From contig DASCMS010000052.1 in assembly GCA_036011085.1 (NCBI GenBank), positions 20,166 to 84,165 of the forward strand: 64,000 nucleotides of DNA. The letters are read 5' to 3'. Below the pieces are notes generated by a model. The model saw nothing but the letters and a program-made list of their open reading frames with translations, searched no databases and had not been told where the DNA came from. Source of the stretch: Candidatus Latescibacterota bacterium (GTDB lineage: Bacteria > Latescibacterota > UBA2968 > UBA8231). Below are positions 3,951 through 26,018 of the stretch, in pieces (the first letter of the stretch is position 1; every line of letters starts with the position of its first letter). Made by a program: the position numbers and the translations under genes.

Positions 3951-3959
3951 AGATTCTCC

Positions 3960-7538: not shown

Positions 7539-7638
7539 CAGGTCCGTCTGCGGTTGGGTGTTGTCAGGGGATGGCTGAGGGAATCGTCGCAAAGTACCCC
7601 GGCCTGACAGGCGGGGCAAGGGAGCGCACCGCGTCTGC

Positions 7639-11532: not shown

Positions 11533-11538
11533 GCAGTC

Positions 11539-11561
11539 AATCTACGTGACCGATCGGTCAC
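11539..11561 (-). promoter_or_regulatory. Perfect 16-bp palindrome GTGACCGATCGGTCAC next to a -10-like TAGATT; candidate operator and possibly leaderless promoter
   Basis: Palindrome at 11546-11561. TAGATT (minus strand; plus coordinates 11539-11544) ends 6 nt before ATG 11532, and no SD is visible. The palindrome fills the spacer upstream of the -10. Confidence 0.4.
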
Positions 11562-11663
11562 CGGGAAGACCGCCCTGACCTGTCGTCCATTCCGGATGCC
11601 GCTTAGAATAATCCCGGGACCGGCACCACATGCAACCAGCAGTGACGAGGAGAGGCGGACAAA

Positions 11664-12767
11664 GTGAAGGACAAGACGAACATCGGCATCGTGGGATGCG
11701 GTGCCATCAGCGGCGCATATCTGAAGATCGCCGGGGACTGGCCCATTCTGAACGTGGCGGCCTGCGCCGACATCGACCTGTCGAGGGCCCAGGCCCGGGC
11801 CGAGGAGTTCGATGTGCTGCGGGCCTGTTCTGTTGACGAACTGCTGGCGGACGAGACCATTGATATCGTCGTCAATCTGACGATTCCGGCAGCCCATCAC
11901 GATGTGGCGGCGGCGGCACTGCAGGCGGGGAAGTCGGCGTACAATGAAAAGCCCCTCGCTGTCAGCCGGGAGGATGGCAAACGCCTCGTCGACCTGGCCA
12001 AGGCCCAGGGCTGCCTGCTGGGCGGCGCGCCTGACACCTTCCTCGGAGGCGGCATCCAGACGTGCCGCAAGCTCATCGACGATGGCTGGATCGGCGAGCC
12101 GGTGGCGGCTTCGGCTTTCATGATGGGGCGTGGCCATGAGAGCTGGCACCCCGATCCGGAGTTCTACTACAAAGCCGGGGGCGGTCCCATGTTCGATATG
12201 GGGCCGTACTACCTGACAGCCCTCGTCTTCCTGATGGGGCCGGTGCAGCGTGCCTCGGGCATGACCCGGGTCACCTTCCCGGAGCGCACGATCACGAGCA
12301 AGCCGAAGTACGGTGAGAAGATCACGGTGGATGTGCCCACCCACGTGGCGGGCACGATGCAGTTTGCCAACGGCGCCATCGGCACGATCACGACCAGCTT
12401 CGACGTCTGGGGAGGCCAGCTGCCCTGCATCGAGATCTACGGCACGGAGGGCTCCATGTCGGTGCCGAATCCCAACACCTTCGGCGGTCCCGTGCAGGTC
12501 AAATTGGGACGCAAGGACTGGGCCGAGATCCCCCTGACCCATCCCAACGAGGAGAACTCGCGCAGCATCGGTGTGGCCGATATGGCCCATGCCCTGCGCT
12601 CGGGCCGGCCCCACCGGGCCAACGGCGATCTGACCTTCCACGTCCTCGACCTGATGCACGCCTTCCACGAAGCCCAGCAGAGCGGCGCCTTTGTCGAACT
12701 GAGCAGCACCTGTGAGCAGCCGGCCATGATTCCCACGGGACTGCAGCCGGGACAACTCGACGACTGA
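11664..12767 (+). CDS. Gfo/Idh/MocA-family oxidoreductase
   Basis: 367 aa with a GTG start. [16 protein letters not shown] Rossmann motif and a typical C-terminal alpha/beta domain. Confidence 0.85.
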
Positions 12768-12792
12768 GCCGGATCGGCGCCCTGTCTCACCC

Positions 12793-12822
12793 TTGACAAT
12801 CGCTGGCGAGATCCGGTATCGT
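12793..12822 (+). promoter_or_regulatory. Putative sigma70-type promoter TTGACA-18-TATCGT for the 12873-23802 operon
   Basis: TTGACA at 12793-12798 and TATCGT at 12817-12822, in the only sizeable gap (105 nt) before a run of overlapping genes. Confidence 0.4.
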
Positions 12823-12872
12823 TGCTCCCCCGAGACGAACGATTCCCGACCTGCAACGGAGTGTCGCCTCTC

Positions 12873-13589
12873 ATGCGGATCCTGCTGACGGAGGATAGCG
12901 GCCCTCTCGGCGGCGAGCTGGACCAAGCCCTTGCCGACACGCATCAGGTTCGCAGCTTGCCTGCAGGCACAGACCTCACCGATGCCAGCACAATCTGGGG
13001 GGCTGTCCGGGGCGTCGATGCCGTCGTTCACACGGGCGTGCCCCTGACGGCTGCCGCCACCGCCATCGGCAACGACGCCGAGCGGGCGGCGCTGGACGAG
13101 GCCACGCGGGGTATGCACGTACTGCTGGATGCGGCCATCCAGGCCGGCGTCCAACGCTTCGTCTACTGCAGCACTCTCGAACTGTTCGCCACGATTCCCG
13201 AAGACCGCTACATCTCCGAGCAATGGCGACCTGATCCGGGCACGGAGATGGCGACCCTGTCACGCCATCTGGCGGAGCAGGTGACCCGTGAGTTTGCCCG
13301 GGAGCGGGCCGTATCGGTTACCGTATTGCGCCTGGGGCGCCTGCGCCGCGAGGAAGATGTGGCCGCAGACGAAGCGCCCGACCTGATGTGGCTCGATCCT
13401 CGGGACGCCTCGACCGCCGTGAACCTGGCCGTACACCGGGACAGCAGCGCGCAACTCAACTGGCAATCGCGCTGGACGGTCTATCATATCTGCTCGCGCC
13501 CGCCCCATCCCAGATTTCTGCTCGACGGCGCCAGAGCTCTCGGTTTTGACCCCGTGCACAATTTCAGTGACTGCTGGGGGCCGGGATGA
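12873..13589 (+). CDS. Epimerase/dehydratase-like protein with degenerate nucleotide-binding motif
   Basis: Start re-picked to MRILLTEDSGPLGGEL, where TEDSGPLG replaces TGxxGxxG. Remainder aligns by eye with the neighbouring paralog. Stop overlaps the next ATG (ATGA). Confidence 0.65.
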   Translation: MRILLTEDSGPLGGELDQALADTHQVRSLPAGTDLTDASTIWGAVRGVDAVVHTGVPLTAAATAIGNDAERAALDEATRGMHVLLDAAIQAGVQRFVYCSTLELFATIPEDRYISEQWRPDPGTEMATLSRHLAEQVTREFARERAVSVTVLRLGRLRREEDVAADEAPDLMWLDPRDASTAVNLAVHRDSSAQLNWQSRWTVYHICSRPPHPRFLLDGARALGFDPVHNFSDCWGPG

Positions 13590-14308
13590 AGCGAGTACTC
13601 TTCCTCGGTGCGTCGGGTCTGATCGGTCCCCATCTGACGCCGGGACTTGTCGATCACTACGACCTGCGCCAGGCTGACGTCCAGCCGCACCCGGAGGGGA
13701 TCGACATCGATCACGTCGATGTGCGCGACTATGCGCAGGTCCTGGAGGCGGCGCGCGGCTGTGACGCGATCATGAACTTCACCGTCGTGCGCAACGATCC
13801 GGTCGACAGTTTCCAGGTGAATACGATCGGCGCCTGGAATGTGATGCGTGCCGCCGTCGAACTGGGGATCCGGAGGATCATCCACTCGGGGCCGCAGGCG
13901 GTACGCTCTTCCTACGACAGTGATTTTGGCGTTGACGATGCCCCCGCGGCCCCTGGCACCGGACACTACAGCATTACCAAGTGGCTGAGTGCCGAGATCT
14001 GCCGCGTGTTCTCGCAGAAGCACGGCATGCACACGGCCTACTTCGTTTTTAATGGTCTGGGTCCGGCACCGGAGACGCCCTGCACCGAGCCGACGGATAC
14101 ACCGCCTTTCGTCGTCATCTGGGAAGATCTTCAGCACGTCTGCCGCCTCGCCCTCGAGGTGCCCTCGCTGCCCGGCAACTTTCAGCTGTTCAACATGCTG
14201 TCCTACACCGGACCGGGGAAGTACAACACCGACAAGGCACGTCGGTTGCTGGGTTTCGAGCCGACACGTGACTGGGACGAGTTCTACCGTCGACGGGTAT
14301 CGGGATGA
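13586..14308 (+). CDS. NAD-dependent epimerase/dehydratase-family protein (Udh-like)
   Basis: 240 aa. VLFLGASGLIGPHL (GxxGxxG), YSITKWLSAEI (YxxxK), C-terminal LLGFEPTRDW. ATGA overlap with the next gene. Confidence 0.8.
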   Translation: MKRVLFLGASGLIGPHLTPGLVDHYDLRQADVQPHPEGIDIDHVDVRDYAQVLEAARGCDAIMNFTVVRNDPVDSFQVNTIGAWNVMRAAVELGIRRIIHSGPQAVRSSYDSDFGVDDAPAAPGTGHYSITKWLSAEICRVFSQKHGMHTAYFVFNGLGPAPETPCTEPTDTPPFVVIWEDLQHVCRLALEVPSLPGNFQLFNMLSYTGPGKYNTDKARRLLGFEPTRDWDEFYRRRVSG

Positions 14309-16470
14309 ATATCGGGCTTCCCGGCGACTTTCGACGGTACCTGTCGATGCGCGGTGCATCCGTCACCCGCGAAGAGGCCGAGAGCCACCAGCCCCTGACG
14401 CTGCGAGCTCTCGCCGTCGGCGCATTCCTCTCGTTCTTCCTCGGCGTCGGCTCCAACTATGCCGACACGGTGATCAAGGGCAGCTACATGACCCTCGATT
14501 TCAGCACACCGGGGGCGATCTTCCTGTTTCTCGTACTCGTCGGCTTCCTCAACTCGCTCTACAAGCTGACGGCCAGGCACTGGATCCTGTCGGGTGGGGT
14601 CACCATCCTGCTCGCCGCCGTCTGGGCCGTTCATTTCTCGCCCTTTGACGCATTGTATCTGTATTCGCCGGGTGTGCTGTTCTCCAGTTTCCTCATCCTC
14701 TCTCTGGCGGCAAACACGGTCCTGGCGGGGATGGGCCGCAATCTGGCACTGAATCGCAGTGAGCTGATCGTCGTCTACATCATGCTCATCGTCGTCGCGT
14801 CCCTGGCGACCATGGGGTTATGCGAGACGATTCTGCCCGCCATCACCGGCGTGTTCTATTACGCCAGTCCCGAGAACAAATGGGCGGAGATCCTGTTCCC
14901 CGTCCTGCCCGACGCGATCATGCTCGACGACGGGACGGAGAACCGGGACTTCTACGAGGGCTTCGGCACCAAGGAATTCTCGATTCCCTGGGGGATCTGG
15001 CTGCGACCGATGGCCATGTGGGGCGTCTTCCTGCTGGCTCTGTATCTGACGATGGTCTGCCTGGCAGTCATCCTGCGCCGCCAGTGGATGGACCGGGAAC
15101 GCCTGTCGTACCCGCTGGTGCAAGTGCCGCAGGCGATGATCCGCGGCGAGGACCCCGATCAGGTGGTCAATCCCTTCTTCAAGAACGGGGTCGTGTGGGC
15201 CGGTGCATCGCTGCCCATTCTCGTGGGTCTGTTCACCGGACTCAACAAGTATCTTGCGGGTTGGCCGCTGATTCCCACGGCGTGGAGCTTCCCCATCGGC
15301 TTCGGCCAGTCGATCAACATGACGATCAGCTTCGCCGTGCTCGGCTTCTCCTACCTGATCGGGCCGGATATCGCCCTCGGGATCTGGGGGTTTGCCCTGT
15401 TCTCCAAGGTGGAGAAGATGTTCTTCGTCGCCAACGGTGTGACCAAGCAGCAGGACGTCTGGGCGGTGTCCACATCGGAACTGCTCAACTACCAGGGCCT
15501 GGGGGCACTGATCGTCTTCGTCGGCATCGGCCTCTGGGTTGGTCGTGAGCACCTCGCCCAGGTACTGAAGAAGTTCCTCGGACAGGACTCAGAGCTCAGC
15601 GACGACGATGAAATCATGACCTACCGGTCGGCTGTGGCAGGTTGCCTGATCGGCACGGTGGTCATGATCGGCTGGTTCGTATTTCTCGGCACACCACTGT
15701 GGGCGGCGTCCCTGTTCGTATTCCTTGCCATGATCATCTTCACAGGCCTGTCCCGGGTCGTGGCCGAGTCCGGCATCGCCGCCATCATCTCGCCGATGAT
15801 CGCACCCGACTTCATGGTCTACGGCCTCGGCTCGAAGCTGCTCGGCGCCACGGCGACGGCCAATTTCTCCATGGGCTACATCTTCGGGGCCGACATCCGC
15901 GTCTTCCTCATGGGTGTCATAGCCAATGGCCTGAAGCTGATCGAAGGGATGAATCGCAGCAGCCGCCGTATCGTGTTCTGGGCCATCGTCATCGCCATCC
16001 TCCTCGGCGTGACGGGCTCGCTGTTCACCGTCATGTCTCTCGGCTACCGCGACGGGGGCATCAACTCCAATGGCTGGTTCTTCAAGAACATGCCGACCAT
16101 CATCTACAAGACGGCGGCGCTGAATATCGAGGAGGCAGAAGGTGTGTACTGGGAAGGCATGAGCTTCGTCGGCGTCGGCGCCGGTGCCATGCTGGCTCTC
16201 ACCTGGCTGCGTCAACGGTTTCTGTGGTGGCCCCTGCATCCGATCGGTTTCCCGATCATGACCAGCTGGCTCGTCGACTGGATGTGGTTCAGTGTCTTCC
16301 TCGCCTGGCTCATCAAAGTGACGATTCTGAAGTACGGTGGCGCGACGCTGTTCGCCCGCAGTCGCTATTTCTTCCTCGGCATGATCGCCGGGCGCATGCT
16401 GATCACGGGCGGCTTTCTCGTCGTCGACTACCTTACCGGGATGGTAAGCAATGCCATCTTCTGGATCTGA
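14305..16470 (+). CDS. Large polytopic membrane protein, possibly distant OPT-superfamily-like; paralog of 21127..23802
   Basis: 721 aa and hydrophobic throughout (I see more than 12 helices). Shares the DRERL[SP][YF]P motif (MDRERLSYPLVQVPQAMI) and N- and C-terminal patterning with the 891-aa protein downstream. Confidence 0.75.
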   Translation: MNIGLPGDFRRYLSMRGASVTREEAESHQPLTLRALAVGAFLSFFLGVGSNYADTVIKGSYMTLDFSTPGAIFLFLVLVGFLNSLYKLTARHWILSGGVTILLAAVWAVHFSPFDALYLYSPGVLFSSFLILSLAANTVLAGMGRNLALNRSELIVVYIMLIVVASLATMGLCETILPAITGVFYYASPENKWAEILFPVLPDAIMLDDGTENRDFYEGFGTKEFSIPWGIWLRPMAMWGVFLLALYLTMVCLAVILRRQWMDRERLSYPLVQVPQAMIRGEDPDQVVNPFFKNGVVWAGASLPILVGLFTGLNKYLAGWPLIPTAWSFPIGFGQSINMTISFAVLGFSYLIGPDIALGIWGFALFSKVEKMFFVANGVTKQQDVWAVSTSELLNYQGLGALIVFVGIGLWVGREHLAQVLKKFLGQDSELSDDDEIMTYRSAVAGCLIGTVVMIGWFVFLGTPLWAASLFVFLAMIIFTGLSRVVAESGIAAIISPMIAPDFMVYGLGSKLLGATATANFSMGYIFGADIRVFLMGVIANGLKLIEGMNRSSRRIVFWAIVIAILLGVTGSLFTVMSLGYRDGGINSNGWFFKNMPTIIYKTAALNIEEAEGVYWEGMSFVGVGAGAMLALTWLRQRFLWWPLHPIGFPIMTSWLVDWMWFSVFLAWLIKVTILKYGGATLFARSRYFFLGMIAGRMLITGGFLVVDYLTGMVSNAIFWI

Positions 16471-19400
16471 CAGCCCGTTGATCAGGCCCATCTGGGTTGC
16501 CATCGTCTGCGGTCTCGGCCTGTGGGTCGTGCTGCCCGCGGCGGGGAAGGGGGACATCGATCCGGAGGCCTTTGACCGGATCTCGATGACCGTGCGGGAG
16601 TTGTCGTCCAACGGCTCCCGTCTGCCGGGATACGCCGGGGATCGATATGCTGCCGACCTGATCGAGCGGGAGTTGAAGAATGCCGGCGTCGAGGGGGTAA
16701 CGCGGGATCCCTACGATCTGGCGGTGCCCATCGACAAGGGCGCATCGATGTCGATTCTCGATGGCGCCGAGCCCCGCACCATGCCACTGCTGTCTCTGTG
16801 GCCCAACCTCGTGCGGACGAATACGACGGGACCTGAAGGGATCGCCGGCAACCTGTTCTACGGCGGACATGGCGAGCACGTGGACTTCGATGGTCACCAG
16901 ATGTTCGGCGCCATCGTCATGCTCGAGTTCAACAGCTGGAAGAACTGGAAGAACGCCGCCGCCCTCGGTGCGGCGGCGATCATCTTCATCGAACCCGAAG
17001 AGACCACCCTCTTCGAGGCCCGCAACAAGTGGTCCTGGACCCCGGTGGATGTGCCGCGCTTCTGGCTGGGTCGCCAGGCCGCCCTCGCCCTGCGGCAGGA
17101 GCTGGGCGACGGCGAGCTGCAGGTTCTTCTGCAGGCGCGCATGGATTACGAAACGCGCACCACATGGAACGTGTGGGGAACGGTGCCTGGCGTGGATCCC
17201 GTGCTGAAGGACGAGATCGTCGCCGTGCAGTCATACTATGACGGCATCTCGGTCGTGCCCGCAGCCACACCTGGGGCCGAGAGCACGGCCGGGGTTGCGG
17301 CGCTGCTTGAGTTTGCCCGGTACCTGCGCGATCACCCCCCGGGGCGAACCGTCGTGCTGCTGGCTTCGGGCTCGCATTTCCAACAGGAGCGCGGCGTCTT
17401 CGCCTTCTTCCAGAAACATGCGAGGGTCCTGGCGCCATTCAAGGGTCGCATGCCGAAGCGCTTCGTTGCCGATTCTCTGAATGTGAGTCGGCTGGTCGAG
17501 GAGACCTCGGCCCGCGGTCTGTCTCTCGACACGCTCGGCGTACGCCTTCGCCCCACAGCCGGAGGCGGGCAGGCATTCGACGGGTTAGATCTCGAGCGCC
17601 TGCAAGCCCAGCTCAAGCTCCGCCGTATCGTTCCGGACTCCATCGGCATCCGCCTCGAGCCTGACAGCCTGAGCCTCGAGCTCTTCATCGCCATCGATCT
17701 GTCGAGTCGTTCCGACCAGGTCGGCTTCGTCCACAGCGCCCGGGCGCCGGCGCATCGCAAGTTCTACGTGCCCATGGGGCGCAGTCTGATGCACCATGCT
17801 GCGGATGCCGCCGCGGAGCTGGGACGGGAGCCGACGGCGATGGTCAACCTCATCAGCCCCATCAAGGGCCTGTCCTGGGACTCGTACCTGGACTTCAACA
17901 CCTACCGTGAGAATGCCTACGTCCCTTTGAACACGGGGGTCGTCACGCTCAGCATGATCACGACGACGGACCGGCGGATGATCATCGACAGTCCGCTCGA
18001 TACGCCGGACAAGGTAAACGTGGGCAACATCGCCCGGCAGAGCGCCATGCTCAATGCGACGTTGGCAAGGGCCCTGGCAGACCCGCAGCTGTTCGGCCAC
18101 GAGTGGGAGAAGCTGCGCGCCGGACACAAGAAGAACATCACCGACGTTCTGTCGTCGATCAACGGTCGGCTGCGCCTGCTGCCACAGCGGAGCGCCACGC
18201 CAGACGAACCCGTTCCCGGGGCCACGGTGGTGGTGATGAACGATCGCTTCCAGAACATGTGGCGGCCACGGATCCATATCGCCGACGAAGATGGCAACTA
18301 CCAGGTGGACGGGCTCGAGAAGTTCAAGACTCAAGTGCGTGGATACCTGGTCGATCCCGAGACGGGGGATATCACCTACAGCACCGACCACGGCGAGCGG
18401 GCGCAGAAACTAGGCGCCTTCGAGCAGACGCTGTCGAAGGCAGAGACCGTGTGGACGACGATTCTGTTCGAATCCGCGAGTCTGGAGATTCACGACCGGG
18501 TGCACGCCGCCTACCACTTCACCTACGGCAACTACAGCAAGGATCAGAAGGTACTCGACAAGCGCGGCGCCGTGCCCCGTCAGTACGGTTTCGTCATGGG
18601 CGACTGGGACGAACAGATGATGGTCCTCTACGGCGTGCCGGGCGATTCGCTGCGCCTCGTGGATGATTCGGTGGTGCTGTTGAACAACGAGGGCGCCATC
18701 GACGAATTGACAGGGCAGGGGCAGGGATTCGACATGCGGCTGGCACGGATGATCCCCTTCGTCAGCCTGCAGTCGATGAAGGACATGTGGCGCCTCGATG
18801 AGGCCCGCATCGAGCGTATGCGGAGCTTCGCCATCGAGAACCCCCGTCTCGACGCGCTGCACAGCCGCTCCTGGCAGGCCCTGCAGAAGGCCGAGATGGC
18901 CATGGAGAACCTGCAATGGGCGAGATACGCCAAGTACATCCGCGAAGCGCTGGGACTCGAGTACCGCGCCTACCCCGACGTGCGGGGTACGCAGAACGAC
19001 ATCATCGTCGGGCTTGTGTTCTTCGTTGCGCTGCTGGTGCCAGCAGCGTTCTTCGCCGAGCGCCTCCTGTTTGCGGCGCCCGAAGTGCACAAGCAACTGG
19101 CATGGTTCGCCGCGATCCTGCTCACCATATGGCTGATTCTGGCCCAGGTGCACCCCGCCTTCGAGCTGGCGCACCCAGTCATCGTGCTGCTGGCGCTGAT
19201 GGTTATGGTCATGGCCTTCTATGTCATCAGTCTCATCGTCGGGCGGTTCAATGCCTTCATGACCGATCTTCAGCAACGCGCCGCCGGAACGGCGAGCGGT
19301 GATCTGAGCCGTTCGGGCACGGCGTACGTGGCCTTCATGCTCGGAATCTCGAATATGCGCCGGAGGGTGACGCGCACGGGGCTGACCCTGGCCACGATTA

Positions 19401-21127
19401 CGATCCTGACCTTCACCGTGCTCTCCTTCACCTCCTTCAAGCCCAGCATCCAGTTCATCGGTTTCGAGAAGGACTGGAAACCCCCGTACAGCGGCATCCT
19501 GTTCCACGATGTCAACTGGTGGACCTGGGAGCCGACGCACTACGACTACCTCGAGTCCCACTTTGCCGAATCGGGCACACTGTCGCCGCGCACCTGGCTG
19601 ACCATGGGTTTCGATGGTGAGGGGTACATCCCCATGCGGCTCGAGGACAGGGAGGCGGATGGTCTCGGGGTGCTGGGCCTGTCGCCACAGGAACCGGGTG
19701 TCACCGGAATTGACGGGACGTTGATGGGCGGGCGCTGGTTCGCGGAGTCGAACGAGGAGAGTGTCATACTCTCCGACCTGCTGGCCCGGCAACTGGATGT
19801 TTCCATAGAGGCCGTGGCGCGGGGAGAGGGCCCGGAGGTGCGCATCTTCGGCAATCCCTGGAAGGTGATCGGTGTCTTCGACAGCCAGGCTTTCGACGCC
19901 AGCCCTGACCTGAACAACGAACCGATGACGCCGGCGCAGGAGCAGTTCATCCAGTTCAACATGCCGGGCATGGATCAGATGTTCATGCTCAACGACGTCT
20001 TCTTCGAAGAGGACATCGAAATCACCTACGAGCATATTCCGGCAAGTCGCCTGGCCATCGTTCCCTACGGTCGTCTGGAGAGCATGGGGGCGGAACTCAG
20101 GTCGGTTGCGGTGCGCTTTGACGAGGGCGCCGACGCGCGCGAGCTGATCGAGAGCTACCTGTCACGATCGGGCTTCCGTCTGTTCGTCGGCATGCCGGAC
20201 GATGACGGCACGATGCGCACGTACTCCTACAGCAGTATCGGCGCCACCTCGATGGAGGGTCTGGGGGCTCTCATGATCCCCATGCTGATTGCGGCGCTGA
20301 TCGTACTCAACACGATGATGGGCGCCGTGTACGAGCGTTTCCGCGAAATCGGCGTCTACTCCTCCGTGGGTCTAGCGCCCGTCCATATTTCCTTCCTCTT
20401 CATCGCCGAATCGTGCGTCTACGGTGTTCTGGGCGTCGTCATCGGCTACATTCTCGGCCAGGTCGGGGCCAAGATGCTGATCCTCTTCGACCTGGTGGGT
20501 GGCGTGTCGCTGAACTACTCCTCCACATCGGCCATAGGTTCGGCCCTGCTCGTCATCGTCGTCGTTCTCGTGTCGAGCATCTATCCGGCGCGGGCTGCCT
20601 CGCAGATGGCCGTGCCCGACGTCGTGCGCCGCTGGCAGCTGCCCGACCCCGACGGTGATGTGTGGCGCTTCCCCTTTCCCTTCACCGTCAACGTCAACGC
20701 CATCGAATCCCTGTGCGGTTTTCTGCAGAACTACTTCGGTTCCTATGGCCACGAGTCGGTGGGGAAGATGTACACCGAGCGCACGCGCATCGTCACCGAG
20801 GAGTCACCAGACGGGCGCACCTACGCCGTGCAGCTGCTGTTGTGGCTGGCGCCATTCGACATGGGGGTCAGCCAATACCTGCAGTTCACCACGTCGAAGA
20901 CGGACAACCCGAGCATCCTCGAAATCCAGTTCTACATCGAACGCGTCAGCGGTCCCGTCGCCTTCTGGCAACGGCTCAATCTGGGTTTCATGCTCGAGCT
21001 GCGTAAGCAGTTCCTCGTCTGGCAGACGCTGAAAACCGAGATTCAGCAAGAGCATACCGATCACTGTCGGCGGGTGGCGGTGGCGGCGGAAGACCTGGAA
21101 CTGGACGTCAGCGAGACGGTTCTCTAG
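16451..21127 (+). CDS. Fusion protein: signal anchor + PA/M28-peptidase-like ectodomain + TM bundle + MacB/FtsX-type permease module + C-terminal domain
   Basis: 1558 aa. PA-like IAGNLFYGGHG...GAIVMLEF...AALGAAAIIFIEP. M28-like WNVWGTVPG...IVAVQSYYDG...PGAESTAGVAALLEFARYL. FtsX-like: TM1 LTLATITILTFTVLSF, about 400-aa loop (GRWFAESNEESVILSDLLARQL...WKVIGVFD), then three TMs with VYERFREIGVYSSVGL. Confidence 0.85.
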   Translation: MPSSGSDSPLIRPIWVAIVCGLGLWVVLPAAGKGDIDPEAFDRISMTVRELSSNGSRLPGYAGDRYAADLIERELKNAGVEGVTRDPYDLAVPIDKGASMSILDGAEPRTMPLLSLWPNLVRTNTTGPEGIAGNLFYGGHGEHVDFDGHQMFGAIVMLEFNSWKNWKNAAALGAAAIIFIEPEETTLFEARNKWSWTPVDVPRFWLGRQAALALRQELGDGELQVLLQARMDYETRTTWNVWGTVPGVDPVLKDEIVAVQSYYDGISVVPAATPGAESTAGVAALLEFARYLRDHPPGRTVVLLASGSHFQQERGVFAFFQKHARVLAPFKGRMPKRFVADSLNVSRLVEETSARGLSLDTLGVRLRPTAGGGQAFDGLDLERLQAQLKLRRIVPDSIGIRLEPDSLSLELFIAIDLSSRSDQVGFVHSARAPAHRKFYVPMGRSLMHHAADAAAELGREPTAMVNLISPIKGLSWDSYLDFNTYRENAYVPLNTGVVTLSMITTTDRRMIIDSPLDTPDKVNVGNIARQSAMLNATLARALADPQLFGHEWEKLRAGHKKNITDVLSSINGRLRLLPQRSATPDEPVPGATVVVMNDRFQNMWRPRIHIADEDGNYQVDGLEKFKTQVRGYLVDPETGDITYSTDHGERAQKLGAFEQTLSKAETVWTTILFESASLEIHDRVHAAYHFTYGNYSKDQKVLDKRGAVPRQYGFVMGDWDEQMMVLYGVPGDSLRLVDDSVVLLNNEGAIDELTGQGQGFDMRLARMIPFVSLQSMKDMWRLDEARIERMRSFAIENPRLDALHSRSWQALQKAEMAMENLQWARYAKYIREALGLEYRAYPDVRGTQNDIIVGLVFFVALLVPAAFFAERLLFAAPEVHKQLAWFAAILLTIWLILAQVHPAFELAHPVIVLLALMVMVMAFYVISLIVGRFNAFMTDLQQRAAGTASGDLSRSGTAYVAFMLGISNMRRRVTRTGLTLATITILTFTVLSFTSFKPSIQFIGFEKDWKPPYSGILFHDVNWWTWEPTHYDYLESHFAESGTLSPRTWLTMGFDGEGYIPMRLEDREADGLGVLGLSPQEPGVTGIDGTLMGGRWFAESNEESVILSDLLARQLDVSIEAVARGEGPEVRIFGNPWKVIGVFDSQAFDASPDLNNEPMTPAQEQFIQFNMPGMDQMFMLNDVFFEEDIEITYEHIPASRLAIVPYGRLESMGAELRSVAVRFDEGADARELIESYLSRSGFRLFVGMPDDDGTMRTYSYSSIGATSMEGLGALMIPMLIAALIVLNTMMGAVYERFREIGVYSSVGLAPVHISFLFIAESCVYGVLGVVIGYILGQVGAKMLILFDLVGGVSLNYSSTSAIGSALLVIVVVLVSSIYPARAASQMAVPDVVRRWQLPDPDGDVWRFPFPFTVNVNAIESLCGFLQNYFGSYGHESVGKMYTERTRIVTEESPDGRTYAVQLLLWLAPFDMGVSQYLQFTTSKTDNPSILEIQFYIERVSGPVAFWQRLNLGFMLELRKQFLVWQTLKTEIQQEHTDHCRRVAVAAEDLELDVSETVL

Positions 21128-23802
21128 TGGCGGGCGAATCCAAAAGGCAGGCGAGGAAGGACCGCCAGTACGAAGAGCTCAATGAGTATCGGGATCTGCT
21201 GCAGCCGCCCGAAACGTTCGAGTCGGGGTTTACGCGCAAGACTCTGATCGGGGTGCTCTTGATCGCCTTTATCATGACCCCGGGGCAGATGTACCTGTCG
21301 TTGGTCACGGGGATCGGGATCGGGGAGGCGGCGCAGTGGGTGACGGTGATCCTGTTTCTCGAGATCGCCAAGCGCTCGTTCACCACTCTGAAGCGGCAGG
21401 AGATCTTCCTGTTGACGTACGTGGCGTCGCAGCTGATCGTGCGCGCCGAGACCCAGACGTTCCTGCAGCTGATCTGGCGCCAGTACTTTGTCAGCTCTCC
21501 CGAGGCGGCACAGTTCGGCCTGACGGACAAACTCGTCGGTCTCACCTGGCGGGGCATGGGCTGGTTTTCTCCCCATCCGGATTCGCCGGCCATCATTCAG
21601 CGCACGTTCTTCCACGAGGACTGGCTGCTGCCGATCGCTCTGCTCGTGATCGGTATCATCGTCAGTCGTGTCACCTGGTTCACTTCGGGGTACGTGCTCT
21701 TCCGGCTGGTGTCGGATCGCGAAAGGCTGCCGTTTCCCACGGCACCGCAGGCGGCGCTCGGGGCCATGGCCCTGGCCGAGGAGAGCGGCTCGGAGGACCA
21801 GTCGTGGAAGTGGCCCGCTTTTACCGTCGGTGGCGCCATCGGTCTGGTCTTCGGCTTCATCTATGTTGCCATCCCGACGTTGACCGAGACGTTTGCCGGC
21901 AAGAAGGTGTCGATCCTGCCCATCCCCTTCGCCGATCTGACGCCTGTACTCGGGCGCTTCCTGGGAGCCACGCCCATCGGCATCAGCTTCAGCCTGTCAC
22001 CGATCTTTGCCGGACTTCTGCTGCCCTTCTGGAGCGTGATGGGCTCTTTCGCGTTTGTCGCGTCCTTCATGGTGATGTCGCCGATCTTGCACCACTACGG
22101 CTTCATGCCGCACTGGGTGCCGGGAATGAGTGCGATCCAGACGCAGATCACCGCAGGTGTCGACTTCTGGCAACCCTTCGCCATGGGGGTGACGCTGGCC
22201 GTGGCCATCATCTCCATCACCCAGGTGATCCGCGCCGGGCGCGAGAAAGCCGTCGACAACGCACACGCCGAAGAGCACGGCCACGACCATGACACCTGTC
22301 GCCATCCCGACTGTGACAAGCAGAGCCAGGTCCGTGGGTACTGCATCGAGCACCTGAACCGCGGCGACTTCAGACTATGGGTCTGCGTCACACTCTTCTT
22401 CCTCGGCGCCGCGTACCCGATCCTACTGGCCAAGACGCTGTTCCCGACGCTGGTGACGACAGGACTGCTCATCGTCATCCTGCTGATCGCCTTTGTCTAC
22501 GCGCCCCTCATGTCCTTTGTGTCCGCCCGGTTGGACGGACTGGTCGGGCAGAACATCGTGATCCCTCACCTGCATGAAGGCATGGTGTTCCTCACCGGCT
22601 ATCGCGGTGTCGAGATCTGGTTCGTGCCGCTGGCGGGGGCCGACTTCGGCGGCGGCGCCGAGACCTTCCGTATCATCGAGTTGACCGGTATGCGCTTCAC
22701 GAGCCTGCTGAAGGCGGAGATCGTGATGGTGCCCATCGTGTTGGGTGCCAGTCTCATGTACTGGAGCTTTCTGTGGAAGCTGTCGCCGATCCCGTCCGAT
22801 GCCTATCCGTACGTACAGACCTTCTGGCCCGCCCGGGCCTTCGCCGAGGCGGTGAAGTATTCGGCGACCCAGTACAGCGTCACCTATGAACCGGGAGAAG
22901 AGGTGGAGGGACGGGTCGTACCTCCTGGGGAAGTGGCATGGAGTCCGGCGAATCTGCAGGATGACGCACTCTATTACTGGCGCGTGAAGGTGTCCTTCGA
23001 CATCAACATCAAGAACCCGACCAAGCGCATCTACGGTCCCTGGTCAGAGACCGGATGGTTTACTACTGATTTCCGCGGTGCTGGCGGCGTGCGTGGATCG
23101 CCGACGATTCTCGAGTTGCCCACGCCACGTGGTGTGGATGCCTCACTGCCGGTACCGCTGCTCATGGTCCCACAGACGGCCACCGTCATCGACGAGCCGG
23201 AAACCTTGTTTCGCGTGCGCCTGCCCACCGAGGGGGATACACGGGATGTGGCGTACGTGATCGAGCTGGACACGGATCCGAAGTTCCGCGGCGACTTCTT
23301 CCAAAGCTCGGCCGAGACGCCGATGTTCTTCCAGATATACTGGCAGGATCCCAGGTCCGCCGGAGACGGCCGCGACGAGGATTTCGACGGTCTCGCCGAT
23401 GAGGAGGTCCTCAATCAGAAGGACGATGATGGTGATGGGGCCATCGACGAGGATCTGCGTCACCCACTGGACGGCGAAAAGTGGCCGATTCTCCTTTTCG
23501 GACTGGTCTTCGGCATCGGCATCTATTCGATCCTCAGCTTCTTCGGCATGCCGATGTTCTTCGTCTGGGGGTACATCCGAGGCGTGGCTTCGGTCGGCGT
23601 TGCCACCTTCTTCCTCATGCTCACCGAAGTCGTCGGCGCCATGCTCGCCAAGTACTACTTCTGGCCCAGGTTCGGTAAACAGCACTGGCGCCAGGTGGCT
23701 ATGGTCCTGGCCGTTGGCTTCGGCGTGGGGATATCGCTGGTGGGGATGTTCTGCGCCGCGACCCTGATGATCAGCAAGGCCGTGTCGGCGACCACGTTCT
23801 AG
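21127..23802 (+). CDS. Large polytopic membrane protein (paralog of 14305..16470) with zinc-ribbon-like loop and acidic Ca-binding-like ectodomain insert
   Basis: 891 aa. GTG 21127 overlaps the upstream TAG by 1 nt. SDRERLPFPTAPQAALGAM motif. CRHPDCDKQSQVRGYCIEHLNR at residues 391-412. DGRDEDFDGLADEE...DDDGDGAIDED at residues 747-777, between TM blocks. Confidence 0.8.
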   Translation: MAGESKRQARKDRQYEELNEYRDLLQPPETFESGFTRKTLIGVLLIAFIMTPGQMYLSLVTGIGIGEAAQWVTVILFLEIAKRSFTTLKRQEIFLLTYVASQLIVRAETQTFLQLIWRQYFVSSPEAAQFGLTDKLVGLTWRGMGWFSPHPDSPAIIQRTFFHEDWLLPIALLVIGIIVSRVTWFTSGYVLFRLVSDRERLPFPTAPQAALGAMALAEESGSEDQSWKWPAFTVGGAIGLVFGFIYVAIPTLTETFAGKKVSILPIPFADLTPVLGRFLGATPIGISFSLSPIFAGLLLPFWSVMGSFAFVASFMVMSPILHHYGFMPHWVPGMSAIQTQITAGVDFWQPFAMGVTLAVAIISITQVIRAGREKAVDNAHAEEHGHDHDTCRHPDCDKQSQVRGYCIEHLNRGDFRLWVCVTLFFLGAAYPILLAKTLFPTLVTTGLLIVILLIAFVYAPLMSFVSARLDGLVGQNIVIPHLHEGMVFLTGYRGVEIWFVPLAGADFGGGAETFRIIELTGMRFTSLLKAEIVMVPIVLGASLMYWSFLWKLSPIPSDAYPYVQTFWPARAFAEAVKYSATQYSVTYEPGEEVEGRVVPPGEVAWSPANLQDDALYYWRVKVSFDINIKNPTKRIYGPWSETGWFTTDFRGAGGVRGSPTILELPTPRGVDASLPVPLLMVPQTATVIDEPETLFRVRLPTEGDTRDVAYVIELDTDPKFRGDFFQSSAETPMFFQIYWQDPRSAGDGRDEDFDGLADEEVLNQKDDDGDGAIDEDLRHPLDGEKWPILLFGLVFGIGIYSILSFFGMPMFFVWGYIRGVASVGVATFFLMLTEVVGAMLAKYYFWPRFGKQHWRQVAMVLAVGFGVGISLVGMFCAATLMISKAVSATTF

Positions 23803-25082
23803 CCGGCAGGTTCACCCGCCGCCTGGCGGATTCCGGCAGCTTCGTCGACGCGCGTCAACAGCAAGGCGCCGACGACGAGGAAGCCGACGACGACGGAGAT
23901 GCCGGCACGCTGGGAGGCGAAAGCCTCGGTGAGCAGACCCAGCAGGAAGGGACCAGCGAAGGCGGTGGCCTTGCCGCTGAAGGCGTAGAAGCCGTAGATC
24001 TCGTTTTCCATCTGTCGTGGTACGAATCGGCCGAGCAGCGACCGACTCGCCGCCTGCGCCGGACCTGCCAGGGCCGAGATGCACAGCGACGCCCCCCAGA
24101 AGACGCGTGTGTCATGGGTTGAAACGGCCGCAAGAGAGGCCAGGACCATGCCGCCAAGGCTCAGCAGGACGGCACGTTTGCCACCCAGCCAGTCATCGAG
24201 ATACCCGCCAAGAAAAGCGCCGATCCCCGCCGCGACACTCGTGCTGACGCCGAACACCATGAGGTCGCGGAAGGTGAAGCCGAGCGTTCCCATGGCGTAG
24301 ATGCCGCCGAAGGCGAAGACGGTGACCAGGCCGTCGTTGTAGATCAGGCGCGCCAGCAGAAGCCGGGAGATCTGTCGATACTCGCGGATCCTGGTCAGAG
24401 TTGCCCACAGCTGTCGCAGGGAACCGCCTGCCGTGACGGATGCGGTTGCAGCGCGGGGCTCGCGCAAGCGCAGGAACAGGGGCAGGCTGAAGAGGGCGAA
24501 CCAGGCGGCGACGAGCAGGTTGGCGGCGCGGATGTTTTCTCCCGCCTCCAATGAGAATCCCAGCCATGGGGTTTCGTTGTCGACGAGGCCGACCATGGCG
24601 ACGCCCATACACAGCAGTCCCCCTACGTACCCCAGGGCCCAGCCGTAGCCGGATACTCGTCCGATCCGGTCGGGTGGGGCGATCTCGGGGAGGAAGGCGT
24701 TGTAGAACACCGTACCCAACTCGAAGCCGATGTTGGCGAGCACGAACAGAGTCAGGGCCGCCGCGACCTGCCCGGGTGTCGGCAGGTAGAGCGCGGCCGT
24801 GCAGACGACGCAGAGCACCGTGGAGGCGGCCAGCAGCAGCTTGCGGCAGGCGTGACGATCGGCGATGGCACCGAGGACGGGGGACAGCAGGGCGACGATG
24901 ATGCCGGTGAGGGCCACGCCCCGTGACCACATGGCGGTTCCGGACACAACGTCGGGAGCCAGCTCGTGAGTGAACCAGGAGGAGTAGATGAAGGTGACGA
25001 CAAGAGTGGTGAAGGCGCTGTTGGCGAAGTCGTAGAAGGACCACGCGAGCACGCCCCCACGCCCGTCGGGTGATGTCGTCAT
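23799..25082 (-). CDS. MFS transporter (UMF1/Atg22-like)
   Basis: Start re-picked to MTTSPDGRGGVLAWSFYDFANSAFTTLVVTFIY, a typical UMF1-family N-terminus. About 12 TM segments. 4-nt convergent overlap with the upstream-strand gene. Confidence 0.8.
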   Translation of the reverse strand: MTTSPDGRGGVLAWSFYDFANSAFTTLVVTFIYSSWFTHELAPDVVSGTAMWSRGVALTGIIVALLSPVLGAIADRHACRKLLLAASTVLCVVCTAALYLPTPGQVAAALTLFVLANIGFELGTVFYNAFLPEIAPPDRIGRVSGYGWALGYVGGLLCMGVAMVGLVDNETPWLGFSLEAGENIRAANLLVAAWFALFSLPLFLRLREPRAATASVTAGGSLRQLWATLTRIREYRQISRLLLARLIYNDGLVTVFAFGGIYAMGTLGFTFRDLMVFGVSTSVAAGIGAFLGGYLDDWLGGKRAVLLSLGGMVLASLAAVSTHDTRVFWGASLCISALAGPAQAASRSLLGRFVPRQMENEIYGFYAFSGKATAFAGPFLLGLLTEAFASQRAGISVVVGFLVVGALLLTRVDEAAGIRQAAGEPAG

Positions 25083-25180
25083 CGGCTTTCCTGGTGAGAG
25101 TTCATGGGAGTATAGACCGCGAGCAACCGCCAGCCAATCATGACGTTGCGCGGCCCTGCCAGGCACGGTTCATTACAGGC

Positions 25181-25963: not shown

Positions 25964-25968
25964 GCGGA

Positions 25969-26018
25969 GCTGCTGACCAGCAAGCTGGTTGAGCAGCAAA
26001 GCTGGGCCAGCAAGCTGG
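25969..26018. repeat. Three tandem copies of a short self-complementary unit (CCAGCAAGCTGG / GCAGCAAAGCTGG / CCAGCAAGCTGG) inside a larger imperfect hairpin
   Basis: Units at 25977-25988, 25993-26005 and 26007-26018. Outer arms GCTGCTGACCAGC (25969-25981) and GCTGGTTGAGCAGC (25984-25997). Sits in the 56-nt gap between convergent genes. No T-run. Confidence 0.5.

What the first reader, a model, noticed from the sequence alone, without database searches (positions are those of the whole stretch)
12793..23802. Tightly coupled operon: two epimerase-like proteins, two paralogous giant membrane proteins and a PA/M28-FtsX fusion, with no ABC ATPase
Seen in sequence:
- A TTGACA-18-TATCGT promoter-like element precedes five ORFs.
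- Their junctions overlap: ATGA at 13586 and at 14305, 20 nt at 16451-16470, and TAGTG at 21127.
- The 721-aa and 891-aa proteins share the motif DRERL[SP][YF]P and similar end patterning, so they look like distant paralogs.
- They flank the 1558-aa fusion protein.

Established knowledge: FtsX/MacB-type 4-TM permease modules (FtsEX, MacB, LolCDE) are mechanotransmitters driven by a cytoplasmic ABC ATPase. None is encoded in this operon or within the window.

Inference: this may be a dedicated envelope machine, for example peptide or glycan processing and uptake, or cell-surface remodelling. I cannot assign it to a characterised system. The OPT-like resemblance of the two paralogs (LxFP-type motif after a charged loop) is from memory only.
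Basis: partly seen in the sequence, partly recalled or inferred. Interest (0 to 1): 0.7.

Follow-up and report, generated by a model that had tools for sequence, protein, structure and literature searches.

The report
OPT-like transporters with peptidase-like FtsX fusion
This is a real, widely conserved but unstudied membrane gene cluster in uncultivated bacteria that joins two oligopeptide-transporter-like proteins to a giant peptidase-like ABC-type permease; its 'missing' ATP motor is encoded next to the cluster in some relatives, so here it probably lies elsewhere in the genome.

Summary
Five same-strand ORFs (12822/12873-23802) have overlapping junctions, and the 64-kb window has no ABC ATPase. 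The conserved unit is smaller than the five genes:
- a about 1,500-aa fusion of a PA/M28-like ectodomain, a MacB/FtsX-type permease module and a family-specific C-terminal domain;
- one or both of two polytopic partners next to it.

In 54 dereplicated loci from at least nine phylum-level groups, almost every fusion has a partner adjacent on the same strand. Several proteins fuse the two covalently. The SDR pair occurs only in close relatives.

The 721-aa protein is Pfam DUF6785+DUF6784. Its confident AlphaFold model matches only the barley Yellow Stripe 1 transporter, so it has the OPT/YSL fold. The unannotated 891-aa protein is a distant paralog (hhalign 91%).

The M28-like domain lacks the canonical zinc ligands in all 29 diverse members aligned.

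'No ATPase' is not a property of the system. Relatives encode a LolD/MacB-type ATPase beside the cluster, often with a small FtsX protein. The ATPase-coupling helix motif is conserved.

Best reading: a Type VII ABC mechanotransmitter, energised in trans, working with OPT-fold transporters, probably in peptide capture and uptake. The function is untested and no publication describes it.

The parts
12793..12822 (+). Sigma-70-like promoter match (TTGACA-18-TATCGT) in the 55-105 nt gap after the upstream Gfo/Idh/MocA gene
   Evidence: The number of such matches in the region equals the shuffle expectation, so only its position is suggestive.
12873..13589 (+). SDR1: short atypical SDR/epimerase-like protein. 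The ORF opens at TTG 12822; the likely start is ATG 12873. Its glycine-rich NAD motif and catalytic YxxxK are degenerate.
   Evidence: Pfam NAD_binding_10 5.6e-9 and Epimerase 1e-8. Sequence read. Found only in close relatives L006 and L007.
13586..14308 (+). SDR2: short SDR/epimerase-like protein with intact GASGLIG and YSITK motifs. Its start overlaps the SDR1 stop (ATGA).
   Evidence: Pfam Epimerase 2.2e-12. Overlap confirmed. A clade-specific accessory gene.
14305..16470 (+). 721-aa polytopic protein, Pfam DUF6785+DUF6784, with the OPT/YSL (Yellow Stripe 1) transporter fold
   Evidence: Pfam 4.2e-110 and 3.5e-27. AF2 model pLDDT 86.4, pTM 0.87. Foldseek PDB hit 7wsr_A E 2.7e-8, TM 0.57/0.67, with the next-best fold at TM<=0.13.
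16451..21127 (+). 1558-aa fusion protein: signal anchor, PA/M28-like ectodomain, unassigned periplasmic region, 3 TM, FtsX/MacB-type 4-TM module with periplasmic domain, family-specific C-terminal domain
16568..18130 (+). PA/M28-like ectodomain (residues about 40-560). The canonical di-zinc ligands are replaced: HxD becomes YYD, D becomes E277, EE becomes H309-F310, H becomes D513.
   Evidence: Family profile vs PDB: 2ek8 1e-23, 6hc6 3.8e-23, then transferrin receptor, nicalin and nicastrin. Ligand columns checked in 29 members. PA Pfam hits in 5/29 and M28 hits in 24/29 members.
18131..18985 (+). Periplasmic region of unknown fold (residues about 561-845)
   Evidence: No Pfam or PDB sequence match. 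Some relatives carry F5/8 type C (discoidin) domains in their ectodomain; where they sit in the protein was not determined.
18986..19264 (+). Three predicted transmembrane helices that return the chain to the cytoplasm ahead of the FtsX module
   Evidence: Hydropathy scan
19328..20608 (+). Type VII ABC (MacB/FtsX/LolC-type) permease module: TM1, MacB_PCD-like periplasmic domain, TM2-4, with a conserved coupling-helix motif VYERFREIG
   Evidence: Pfam FtsX 5.8e-14 and MacB_PCD 4.8e-4. PDB hits MacB 5lil 5.8e-13, YtrF, LolC, LolF. Motif conserved in all 29 members.
20612..21124 (+). Family-specific C-terminal (inferred cytoplasmic) domain of about 170 aa, fold unknown
   Evidence: 1298 representative clusters at E<=1e-3. 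It lies at the C-terminus of about 1450-1900-aa proteins in most full-length hits. It is also present in fusions that have an adjacent ATPase.
21127..23802 (+). 891-aa polytopic protein with no Pfam family ('C891'). It is a distant paralog of DUF6785 and the most frequent partner found immediately downstream of the fusion.
   Evidence: hhalign 91%, E 1.1e-6. 38% identity to the downstream gene in Planctomycetes and other distant loci. The poor AF2 model (pLDDT 54.8) still ranks HvYS1 first. JGI names a member 'OPT family protein'.
22297..22353 (+). Conserved Cys/His motif (C391, H393, C396, C406, H409), zinc-finger-like, in a loop of the 891-aa protein
   Evidence: Invariant columns. Weak Pfam Zf_WRKY19 match in 16/22 members.
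22879..23466 (+). Inserted beta-rich (Ig-like) domain plus an acidic Asp-rich repeat in the 891-aa protein. Other members of the family carry PDZ domains.
   Evidence: pLDDT about 80 for residues 585-730 and DSSP strands. Ig-like Foldseek hits. NCBIfam acidic-repeat hits in 11/22 members. PDZ-bearing homologs.

Best explanation
Shown:
- The region encodes one copy of a conserved, uncharacterised envelope module.
- Its invariant part is a about 1,500-aa inner-membrane protein. This carries a large periplasmic PA/M28-like ectodomain without the canonical zinc site, fused to a MacB/FtsX-type (Type VII ABC) permease module and a family-specific C-terminal domain.
- One or two large polytopic proteins are encoded beside it. 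These are DUF6785/6784 and an unannotated distant paralog. DUF6785/6784 has the fold of OPT/YSL transporters; for the paralog this is inferred from homology and a weak model hit.

Inferred:
- The FtsX module works as in other Type VII ABC systems. A cytoplasmic LolD/MacB-type ATPase, with or without a small FtsX-only partner subunit, drives movements of the periplasmic domains.
- In this genome those two genes lie outside the 64-kb window. They may be shared by several paralogous clusters.
- The ATP-driven ectodomain captures, and possibly trims, an extracytoplasmic substrate and hands it to the OPT-fold proteins for import. Oligopeptides or protein termini are the most likely substrate.
- The fusion and the OPT-fold proteins form a physical complex.
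- The two short SDR genes are a lineage-specific add-on.
For: Co-localisation:
- Of 54 dereplicated loci, 39 have the C891 gene directly downstream. 20 have DUF6785 directly upstream. 2 have DUF6785 downstream instead. 2 have it fused in-frame. Only 2 full-context loci have neither.
- Independent fused proteins: P0059, P0060, P0077, the L065 ORF and P0387.

Folds:
- The DUF6785/6784 model (pLDDT 86) matches only HvYS1. HvYS1 is a proton-driven symporter for which an elevator-type mechanism was proposed (PMC9691689).
- C891 is homologous to DUF6785.

ABC engine:
- FtsX Pfam domain, and MacB/LolC/YtrF PDB matches.
- The ERxREIG coupling-helix motif is conserved in all 29 diverse members.
- A lone LolD/MacB-type ATPase lies directly upstream of the cluster in L022, L035 and L036.
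- DUF6785-fusion-C891-smallFtsX-ATPase occurs in L132 and L149, with permuted orders in L097, L104, L108, L144 and L162.
- The smallFtsX-ATPase pair also occurs alone (31/80 loci have the pair; 5 with 5-kb flanks or more have no cluster), which fits encoding in trans.
- Genomes carry 2-3 paralogous clusters.

Peptide hints:
- M28/PA fold.
- PDZ inserts in C891 paralogs.
- An M42 aminopeptidase gene is conserved divergently upstream in one clade.
- An M20 peptidase gene lies at window 6396-7700.

Precedent: Type VII ABC systems that work with periplasmic hydrolases, namely FtsEX-EnvC and YbbAP-TesA (PMC12646458).
Against: - No ATPase or small FtsX gene lies in the window, or within 10 kb in about 75 of the 80 loci closest to the window's fusion. 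For this genome the in-trans partner is an inference.
- The M28-like site lacks all canonical ligands, so hydrolysis may not occur at all.
- Context also points to glycans: SDR 'epimerase-like' genes, Gfo/Idh/MocA genes, discoidin/CBM-like inserts in some fusions, and a sulfatase elsewhere in the window.
- The direction of transport, and the physical interaction apart from the fused cases, are untested.
- The C891 structural model is poor.
Confidence: 0.45

Rival explanations
1. Export or envelope remodelling rather than uptake. As in LolCDE, MacAB or YbbAP-TesA, the ATP-driven FtsX module extracts or expels a hydrophobic, lipid-linked or peptide substrate from the inner membrane or periplasm. 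The OPT-fold proteins would act as exporters or flippases. The SDR and Gfo/Idh/MocA enzymes would modify a glycan moiety.
For: - All characterised Type VII ABC systems act outward or within the envelope (PMC12646458; PMC5985334, listed).
- SDR and Gfo/Idh/MocA genes flank the cluster here and in L002.
- Some fusions carry discoidin-type carbohydrate-binding inserts.
Against: - The only solved OPT-fold protein is an importer, a proton symporter (PMC9691689).
- The SDR pair is not conserved with the cluster.
- Several divergent copies per genome fit nutrient acquisition better than a housekeeping envelope pathway.
- No outer-membrane or adaptor (MacA/TolC-like) gene was noticed beside the core, though neighbours were not surveyed systematically.
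Confidence: 0.2
2. An ATPase-independent machine in this lineage. The FtsX module has become a structural or regulatory membrane anchor. Any energy comes from the proton-motive force through the OPT-fold proteins. The family-specific C-terminal domain would take over the cytoplasmic role.
For: - There is no ATPase in the 64-kb window.
- There is none within 10 kb in most close relatives.
- The C-terminal domain is a hallmark of the family.
Against: - The ERxREIG coupling-helix motif is strictly conserved.
- Fusions with an adjacent ATPase also carry the C-terminal domain, so it is not a substitute (HMM coverage to position about 1500 in L108, L144, L149).
- ATPase linkage recurs in at least 12 loci with different gene orders.
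Confidence: 0.15
3. Metal-chelate (siderophore- or nicotianamine-like) uptake. The OPT/YSL-fold proteins import a metal complex, and the modified M28-like site (conserved Tyr/Phe, Asp, Glu, His, Asp) binds the metal or chelate.
For: - The only structural match is the Fe(III)-phytosiderophore transporter HvYS1.
- The substituted M28 positions are conserved rather than degenerate.
Against: - Fold similarity says nothing about substrate. Identity to HvYS1 is 13-14%.
- The Tyr positions vary to Phe.
- No chelator-biosynthesis or iron-regulation genes were seen nearby.
Confidence: 0.07
4. Chance juxtaposition of unrelated membrane genes, or an annotation artefact.
For: None beyond the weak pairwise BLAST similarity between the two large proteins.
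Against: - Same-strand adjacency is conserved in dozens of loci from many phyla.
- Translational overlaps link the genes.
- Repeated in-frame gene fusions exist.
Confidence: 0.02

Closest known systems
YbbAP-TesA (E. coli Type VII ABC transporter-hydrolase complex; PMC12646458)
   Same: - A MacB/FtsX-type permease works with an extracytoplasmic hydrolase-fold partner.
- ATP-driven mechanotransmission is proposed to present substrates to that partner.
   Different: - Here the hydrolase-like domain (PA/M28 fold, not SGNH) is fused to the permease and lacks canonical catalytic residues.
- The ATPase is not adjacent in this genome.
- OPT-fold polytopic partners are present, which YbbAP-TesA lacks.
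FtsEX with EnvC/PcsB/RipC; MacAB-TolC; LolCDE (characterised Type VII ABC systems; PMC7668044, PMC5985334)
   Same: - 4-TM FtsX module with a periplasmic domain between TM1 and TM2.
- Conserved coupling helix.
- LolD/MacB/FtsE-like ATPase in relatives.
- A possible heterodimer of two different FtsX-type subunits, as in LolC/LolE.
   Different: - The fusion scores far below every NCBIfam equivalog cut-off.
- It has an extra about 800-aa ectodomain, three extra TM helices and a unique C-terminal domain.
- No MacA/TolC or LolA-type partner was noticed.
- Several copies per genome.
- Association with OPT-fold proteins.
OPT superfamily / Yellow Stripe 1 (HvYS1, PDB 7wsr; PMC9691689)
   Same: Whole-chain fold match of the DUF6785/6784 model (TM 0.57/0.67). 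A comparable motif after a basic loop (LxYP/LxFP) is recalled from memory only.
   Different: - 13-14% identity, and no Pfam OPT or PDB sequence-level match.
- C891 carries Ig-like, acidic or PDZ inserts and a Cys/His motif.
- These proteins are encoded with, or fused to, an ABC-type permease. I know of no such arrangement described for OPT proteins.
Non-catalytic M28-like ectodomains: transferrin receptor, nicalin, nicastrin
   Same: - The family profile matches them.
- Like them, the domain has lost the canonical di-zinc ligands and sits on a membrane protein. It may act as a substrate or ligand receptor.
   Different: - The replaced positions are themselves conserved (D264, E277, H309, D513), so a modified metal or active site cannot be excluded.
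- Bacterial, and fused to an FtsX module.
Pfam DUF6785 / DUF6784
   Same: The 721-aa protein is a full-length member.
   Different: - Pfam gives no function.
- The 891-aa paralog is outside both models.
- The link to the FtsX fusion is not found in the searched literature, which has no paper containing these accessions.

Membership tests
Type VII ABC transporter permease (MacB/FtsX/LolCE type) | FtsX 4-TM domain (PF02687) above the Pfam threshold | tested here: met
   52.6 bits against a cut-off of 25.5 at residues 1278-1386. All 29 diverse members match. PDB matches to MacB, YtrF, LolC and LolF.
Type VII ABC transporter permease (MacB/FtsX/LolCE type) | Periplasmic domain between TM1 and TM2 of MacB_PCD type | tested here: inconclusive
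   The window protein scores 20.9 bits, below the cut-off of 27. 10/29 family members match, best 7.4e-9. The stretch aligned to the MacB periplasmic domain has E 1.6.
Type VII ABC transporter permease (MacB/FtsX/LolCE type) | Conserved cytoplasmic coupling helix (ERxxEIG) between TM2 and TM3 | tested here: met
   VYERFREIG in the window protein. E-R and E/D-I are conserved in all 29 members. Identification of this motif as the coupling helix rests on my knowledge of MacB structures.
Type VII ABC transporter permease (MacB/FtsX/LolCE type) | Cognate cytoplasmic ABC ATPase | tested here: inconclusive
   None in the window. A LolD/MacB-type ATPase is adjacent to the cluster in L022, L035, L036, L063, L097, L104, L108, L132, L144, L149 and L162. 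The rest of this genome could not be searched.
Named equivalogs LolC/LolE, MacB, FtsX | Score above the NCBIfam equivalog cut-off | tested here: not met
   Best scores are 29 bits (FtsX_actino, cut-off 250), 21.7 (MacB, cut-off 966) and 17 (LolC, cut-off 473).
Peptidase family M28 (with PA domain) | M28/PA fold homology | tested here: met
   Family profile vs PDB: 2ek8 1e-23 and 6hc6 3.8e-23, including the PA insert. Pfam M28 in 24/29 and PA in 5/29 members. The window protein itself scores 21.0 bits against a cut-off of 21.3.
Peptidase family M28 (with PA domain) | Co-catalytic zinc ligands (His, Asp, Glu, Asp, His) and catalytic Glu | tested here: not met
   HxD becomes [YF][YF]D. The bridging Asp becomes Glu. 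EE becomes H-F. The last His becomes Asp/Asn. This holds in all 29 members. The equivalent of the fourth ligand (Asp179 of the Vibrio enzyme) was not located.
OPT superfamily (oligopeptide / Yellow Stripe-like transporters) | OPT/YSL fold | tested here: met
   For the 721-aa protein: Foldseek E 2.7e-8, probability 1.00, TM 0.57/0.67 over 732 columns to 7wsr_A, with all other folds at TM<=0.13. For the 891-aa protein the evidence is weak: a poor model still ranks 7wsr first at E 0.03, plus homology to DUF6785.
OPT superfamily (oligopeptide / Yellow Stripe-like transporters) | Sequence membership in Pfam OPT (PF03169) or the NCBIfam OPT models | tested here: not met
   No OPT hit for either protein, or for 22 family members at E<=10. 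No PDB sequence match at E<=10. One JGI record names a member 'OPT family protein'.
OPT superfamily (oligopeptide / Yellow Stripe-like transporters) | Proton-coupled substrate import | not testable with these tools
   Needs transport assays.
Pfam DUF6785 + DUF6784 | Both models above threshold | tested here: met
   721-aa protein: 369 bits and 95 bits. The 891-aa protein matches neither. It is related only at profile-profile level, and only in its N-terminal half.
Extended SDR (NAD-dependent epimerase/dehydratase) | GxxGxxG NAD motif, catalytic YxxxK, and about 310-340 aa with a substrate-binding domain | tested here: inconclusive
   SDR2 has GASGLIG and YSITK. SDR1 has TEDSGPLGG and no YxxxK. 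Both are only about 240 aa and score far below every NCBIfam equivalog cut-off.

The most novel reading that the evidence does not exclude
A previously unrecognised class of hybrid transport machine. A Type VII ABC mechanotransmitter is made of a giant FtsX-type subunit with a receptor- or peptidase-like ectodomain, with or without a small FtsX subunit, plus a LolD-type ATPase. It is physically coupled, and in some lineages covalently fused, to OPT-fold secondary transporters. ATP-driven periplasmic work (capture, unfolding or trimming of a substrate) would then be mechanically linked to proton-driven import. The energising pair may be shared in trans among several substrate-specific clusters, as in group II ECF transporters.
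Probability: 0.3. Interest if true: 0.8.

Novelty: new variant of a known kind. Interest (0 to 1): 0.62.

Why it matters
- Type VII ABC systems are few and each does something different: cell division, lipoprotein sorting, efflux, lipid hydrolysis. A large further branch (about 1,300 clusters at 50% identity for its hallmark domain) is tied to OPT-fold proteins. That would extend the known uses of mechanotransmission. It would also be the first link between an ABC-type engine and OPT-type secondary transporters.
- It gives a fold and a context to Pfam DUF6785/DUF6784 and to an unannotated paralogous family.
- The module is multi-copy in Latescibacterota and marine Gemmatimonadota-like MAGs, and occurs in Armatimonadota, Omnitrophota and others. 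It may be a major route of polymer-derived nutrient uptake in uncultivated heterotrophs.
- For annotation: an FtsX gene without a neighbouring ATPase need not be an orphan.

Tried and rejected
- Pairwise BLASTP of the two large proteins found only the motif region (E 0.006).
- hhalign on shallow alignments gave 7% probability. Homology became convincing only with diverse locus-derived alignments. The C-terminal halves alone stay non-significant.
- Pfam and NCBIfam scans of 22 C891 members at E<=10 gave no transporter family.
- PDB sequence searches with both profiles found nothing.
- tblastn of C891 against plasmids gave only noise.
- A motif search for bona fide OPT genes in the fetched loci found none, so no direct profile comparison with OPT was possible.
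- The AF2 model of the 891-aa protein from 24 sequences was poor (pLDDT 54.8). Its Foldseek result is used only as a hint.
- Literature searches for DUF6785/DUF6784, FtsX+M28+Latescibacteria and FtsX+OPT found nothing relevant.
- Greedy longest-ORF gene calling for a neighbour-enrichment survey picked spurious antisense ORFs in this high-GC DNA. I therefore report only profile-confirmed genes and a few targeted neighbours.
- I considered that the C-terminal domain replaces the ATPase. I rejected this because fusions with a cis ATPase keep the domain.
- I considered that the smallFtsX-ATPase pair is FtsEX or LolCDE. Gene order, size (many about 210 aa with almost no periplasmic loop) and sub-threshold scores argue against it.

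Full report
**Observation**

The junction overlaps are confirmed: ATGA at 13586 and 14305, 20 nt at 16451-16470, and TAGTG at 21127.

The TTGACA-18-TATCGT element lies at 12793-12822 in the gap after an upstream Gfo/Idh/MocA gene. Such matches are as frequent in shuffled sequence (3 found, 2.9 expected). The TTG start at 12822 overlaps the -10 hexamer, so ATG 12873 is the more plausible start of gene 1.

No ABC ATPase ORF exists anywhere in the 64-kb window. I checked with a Walker A plus signature regex and with phmmer using a LolD/MacB-type ATPase. No small FtsX-only protein is present either.

**What the proteins are**

*Genes 1 and 2.* Both are short (about 240 aa) SDR/epimerase-like proteins. 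Only the second has an intact GxxGxxG and YxxxK (sequence).

*Gene 3 (721 aa).* This is a full-length Pfam DUF6785+DUF6784 protein (4e-110 and 3.5e-27).

*Gene 4 (1558 aa).* Hydropathy and profile matches give this order:
- an N-terminal signal anchor;
- a PA/M28-like ectodomain;
- about 290 residues with no detectable relatives;
- three TM helices;
- a MacB/FtsX-type module (TM1, PCD-like periplasmic domain, TM2-4);
- a about 170-aa C-terminal domain.

A family profile matches the PA-containing aminopeptidases 2ek8 and 6hc6 at about 1e-23. It also matches the non-catalytic M28-like ectodomains of transferrin receptor, nicalin and nicastrin, and MacB, YtrF, LolC and LolF for the C-terminal part.

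In all 29 diverse members the canonical M28 ligands are replaced. HxD becomes [YF][YF]D, the bridging Asp becomes Glu, the Glu-Glu pair becomes His-Phe, and the last His becomes Asp/Asn. The domain is therefore not a canonical di-zinc aminopeptidase. The substituted positions are themselves conserved, so a modified site cannot be excluded.

The C-terminal domain is a hallmark of this family. It has 1298 representative clusters at E<=1e-3, in most full-length hits at the C-terminus of 1450-1900-aa proteins.

*Gene 5 (891 aa).* It has no Pfam or NCBIfam family.

**Conservation and linkage**

Relatives of the fusion occur in MAGs labelled Gemmatimonadota, Latescibacterota, Zixibacteria, WS1, Planctomycetes, Ratteibacteria, Armatimonadota, Omnitrophota and Handelsmanbacteria. 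At least 11 genomes appear with two or three different copies.

I searched six-frame ORFs of 84 fetched loci with profiles of the three families and dereplicated to 54 loci.

| Arrangement (all same strand, adjacent) | Loci |
|---|---|
| Fusion then C891, no DUF6785 called directly upstream | 18 |
| DUF6785, fusion, C891 (as in the window) | 14 |
| Fusion then C891, contig ends upstream | 7 |
| DUF6785 then fusion only | 6 |
| Fusion then DUF6785 | 2 |
| DUF6785 fused in-frame to the C-terminus of the fusion | 2 |
| Neither partner, full context available | 2 |
| Neither partner called, contig ends upstream | 2 |
| Contig ends on both sides | 1 |

Further in-frame fusions are P0059, P0060, P0077 and P0387.

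The downstream gene in Planctomycetes (L001) and another distant locus (L002) is 38% identical to the window's 891-aa protein.

The SDR pair accompanies the cluster only in the two closest relatives, L006 and L007. There it directly precedes the fusion and DUF6785 is absent. The conserved unit is thus the fusion plus at least one of two interchangeable polytopic partners, not the five-gene operon.

**Paralogy and fold of the partners**

BLASTP links the two large proteins only through the DRERLxxP region (E 0.006). Shallow alignments gave a weak profile-profile score. Alignments built from the diverse loci gave hhalign probability 90.9% and E 1.1e-6 over 305 columns of the N-terminal halves. 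The C-terminal halves align collinearly but not significantly on their own.

An AlphaFold2 model of the DUF6785/6784 protein from 107 sequences is confident (pLDDT 86.4, pTM 0.87). Foldseek against the PDB returns only the barley Yellow Stripe 1 transporter (7wsr/7wst) as a real match: E 2.7e-8, TM 0.57/0.67, 732 aligned columns. Every other hit has TM<=0.13.

HvYS1 is an OPT-superfamily member. It is a proton-driven symporter for which an elevator-like mechanism with core and scaffold domains was proposed, and it dimerises through the scaffold (PMC9691689).

The model of the 891-aa protein is poor (pLDDT 54.8) but still ranks the same two entries first (E 0.03). One JGI record calls a member an OPT family protein. 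Neither protein is a sequence-level member of Pfam OPT.

The 891-aa family also carries extra elements:
- a conserved Cys/His motif;
- an inserted Ig-like domain plus an acidic repeat;
- PDZ domains in other members of the family.

**The missing ATPase**

In L022, L035 and L036 a lone 262-aa ABC ATPase lies on the same strand about 0.6 kb upstream of DUF6785-fusion-C891. L038 and L063 have close homologs nearby. Its best NCBIfam matches are LolD, MacB, FtsE and DevA, all below equivalog cut-offs.

Using this ATPase as a probe in metagenome contigs, 11 of 80 loci contain cluster members:
- DUF6785-fusion-C891-smallFtsX-ATPase in L132 and L149;
- fusion-C891-smallFtsX-ATPase in L097 and L104;
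- smallFtsX-ATPase-fusion-DUF6785-C891 in L108;
- smallFtsX-ATPase-DUF6785-fusion in L162;
- ATPase-fusion-C891-DUF6785 in L144.

The small FtsX proteins are 205-355 aa, carry PF02687 only, and many have almost no periplasmic loop. They keep the TERxREIG motif.

The smallFtsX-ATPase pair is also found on its own. 31 of 80 loci have the pair, and five with at least 5 kb of flank on both sides have no cluster. Some pairs sit next to shorter relatives of the fusion's C-terminal half.

The fusion keeps the ERxREIG motif in all 29 members. In MacB-type proteins this forms the helix that docks the ATPase; that point rests on my knowledge of MacB structures. Fusions with a cis ATPase still have the C-terminal domain.

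I conclude that the system is ABC-powered and that this genome most likely encodes the ATPase, with or without the small FtsX, elsewhere. The pair may be shared among paralogous clusters. This last step is inference, because I could not search the rest of the genome.

**Mechanism proposed**

By analogy with FtsEX-EnvC and YbbAP-TesA (PMC12646458; PMC7668044, listed), ATP hydrolysis in the cytoplasm would move the periplasmic domains of the fusion. The PA/M28-like ectodomain would capture, and perhaps process, a substrate. It would then deliver it to the adjacent OPT-fold protein(s) for import. The covalent fusions argue for a physical complex.

I favour oligopeptides or protein termini as substrate, for these reasons:
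- the M28/PA fold;
- the PDZ inserts;
- OPT precedent;
- an M42 aminopeptidase gene conserved divergently upstream in the PDZ-bearing clade;
- an M20 peptidase gene at window 6396-7700.

The glycan-flavoured neighbours keep other substrates open. These are the SDRs, the Gfo/Idh/MocA genes and the discoidin inserts in some fusions. Direction of transport, catalysis and complex formation are all untested.

**Comparison and novelty**

The components belong to known superfamilies: Type VII ABC permease, M28-like ectodomain, OPT fold and SDR. The fusion fails every named equivalog. The M28 catalytic test is not met. The OPT relation is at fold level only.

No paper in the searched library mentions DUF6785/DUF6784 or this combination. 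I rate it a new variant of a known kind: a large, uncharacterised branch of Type VII ABC systems with OPT-fold partners. The headline puzzle of an FtsX module without an ATPase is largely explained away. The association itself is robust and new.

Noticed in passing
window 46505-47947 (-) and 47949-51323 (-): A second SDR arrangement. A 480-aa protein has two tandem epimerase/NAD-binding halves and is similar to both SDR1 and SDR2, like a fused version of the pair. It is encoded 1 nt after a 1124-aa membrane protein with an Rce1-like CAAX protease domain and a DUF4901 repeat. Tandem short SDRs next to giant membrane proteins thus occur twice in this window.
   Followed up: partly
window 23799-23802: The 891-aa gene and the convergent Atg22-like MFS gene (23799-25166, - strand) end on overlapping stop codons (CTAG). 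This leaves no room for an intergenic terminator.
   Followed up: no
L015, L046, L048, L050, L053, L054, L056, L085, L086 (about 1-3 kb upstream of DUF6785): In one Latescibacterota clade an M42-family peptidase gene (divergent strand) and an adh_short SDR gene are conserved just upstream of the cluster. In several of these loci (L048, L050, L053, L054, L056, L086) the downstream partner is the long, about 1070-aa PDZ-bearing form.
   Followed up: partly
L130, L142, L151, L156 (minus-strand ORFs next to the smallFtsX-ATPase pair): Shorter relatives match only the FtsX module of the fusion, some extending a short way past it (HMM positions about 830-1420 of about 1508). The full-length ones are about 950-1000 aa and lack the M28-like half. 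They sit divergently beside smallFtsX-ATPase pairs, which suggests a wider family of large FtsX-type subunits using the same energising pair.
   Followed up: no
L046 and L085 (two DUF6785 genes in tandem upstream of the fusion); L064 and L144 (DUF6785 after C891): The number and order of OPT-fold partners vary. There are tandem duplications of DUF6785 and permuted positions, as expected for interchangeable paralogous subunits.
   Followed up: no
L002/L003 positions about 2200-9800: In one distant relative the cluster lies next to a bacterial microcompartment locus with BMC shell proteins, EutN, aldehyde dehydrogenase, class II aldolase and an RnfC-like protein.
   Followed up: no
window 10495-11667 (+): A 390-aa ORF overlaps the start of the upstream Gfo/Idh/MocA gene by 4 nt. 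It has no Pfam match. It may belong to the same transcription unit as the Gfo gene.
   Followed up: no
window 10000-26000: The simple terminator-like scan found 18 sites against 6.8 +/- 2.6 expected in shuffles. All lie inside coding sequence on either strand, and none follows the cluster. Cause unknown; it may be a codon or composition effect of T-rich membrane-protein codons.
   Followed up: no
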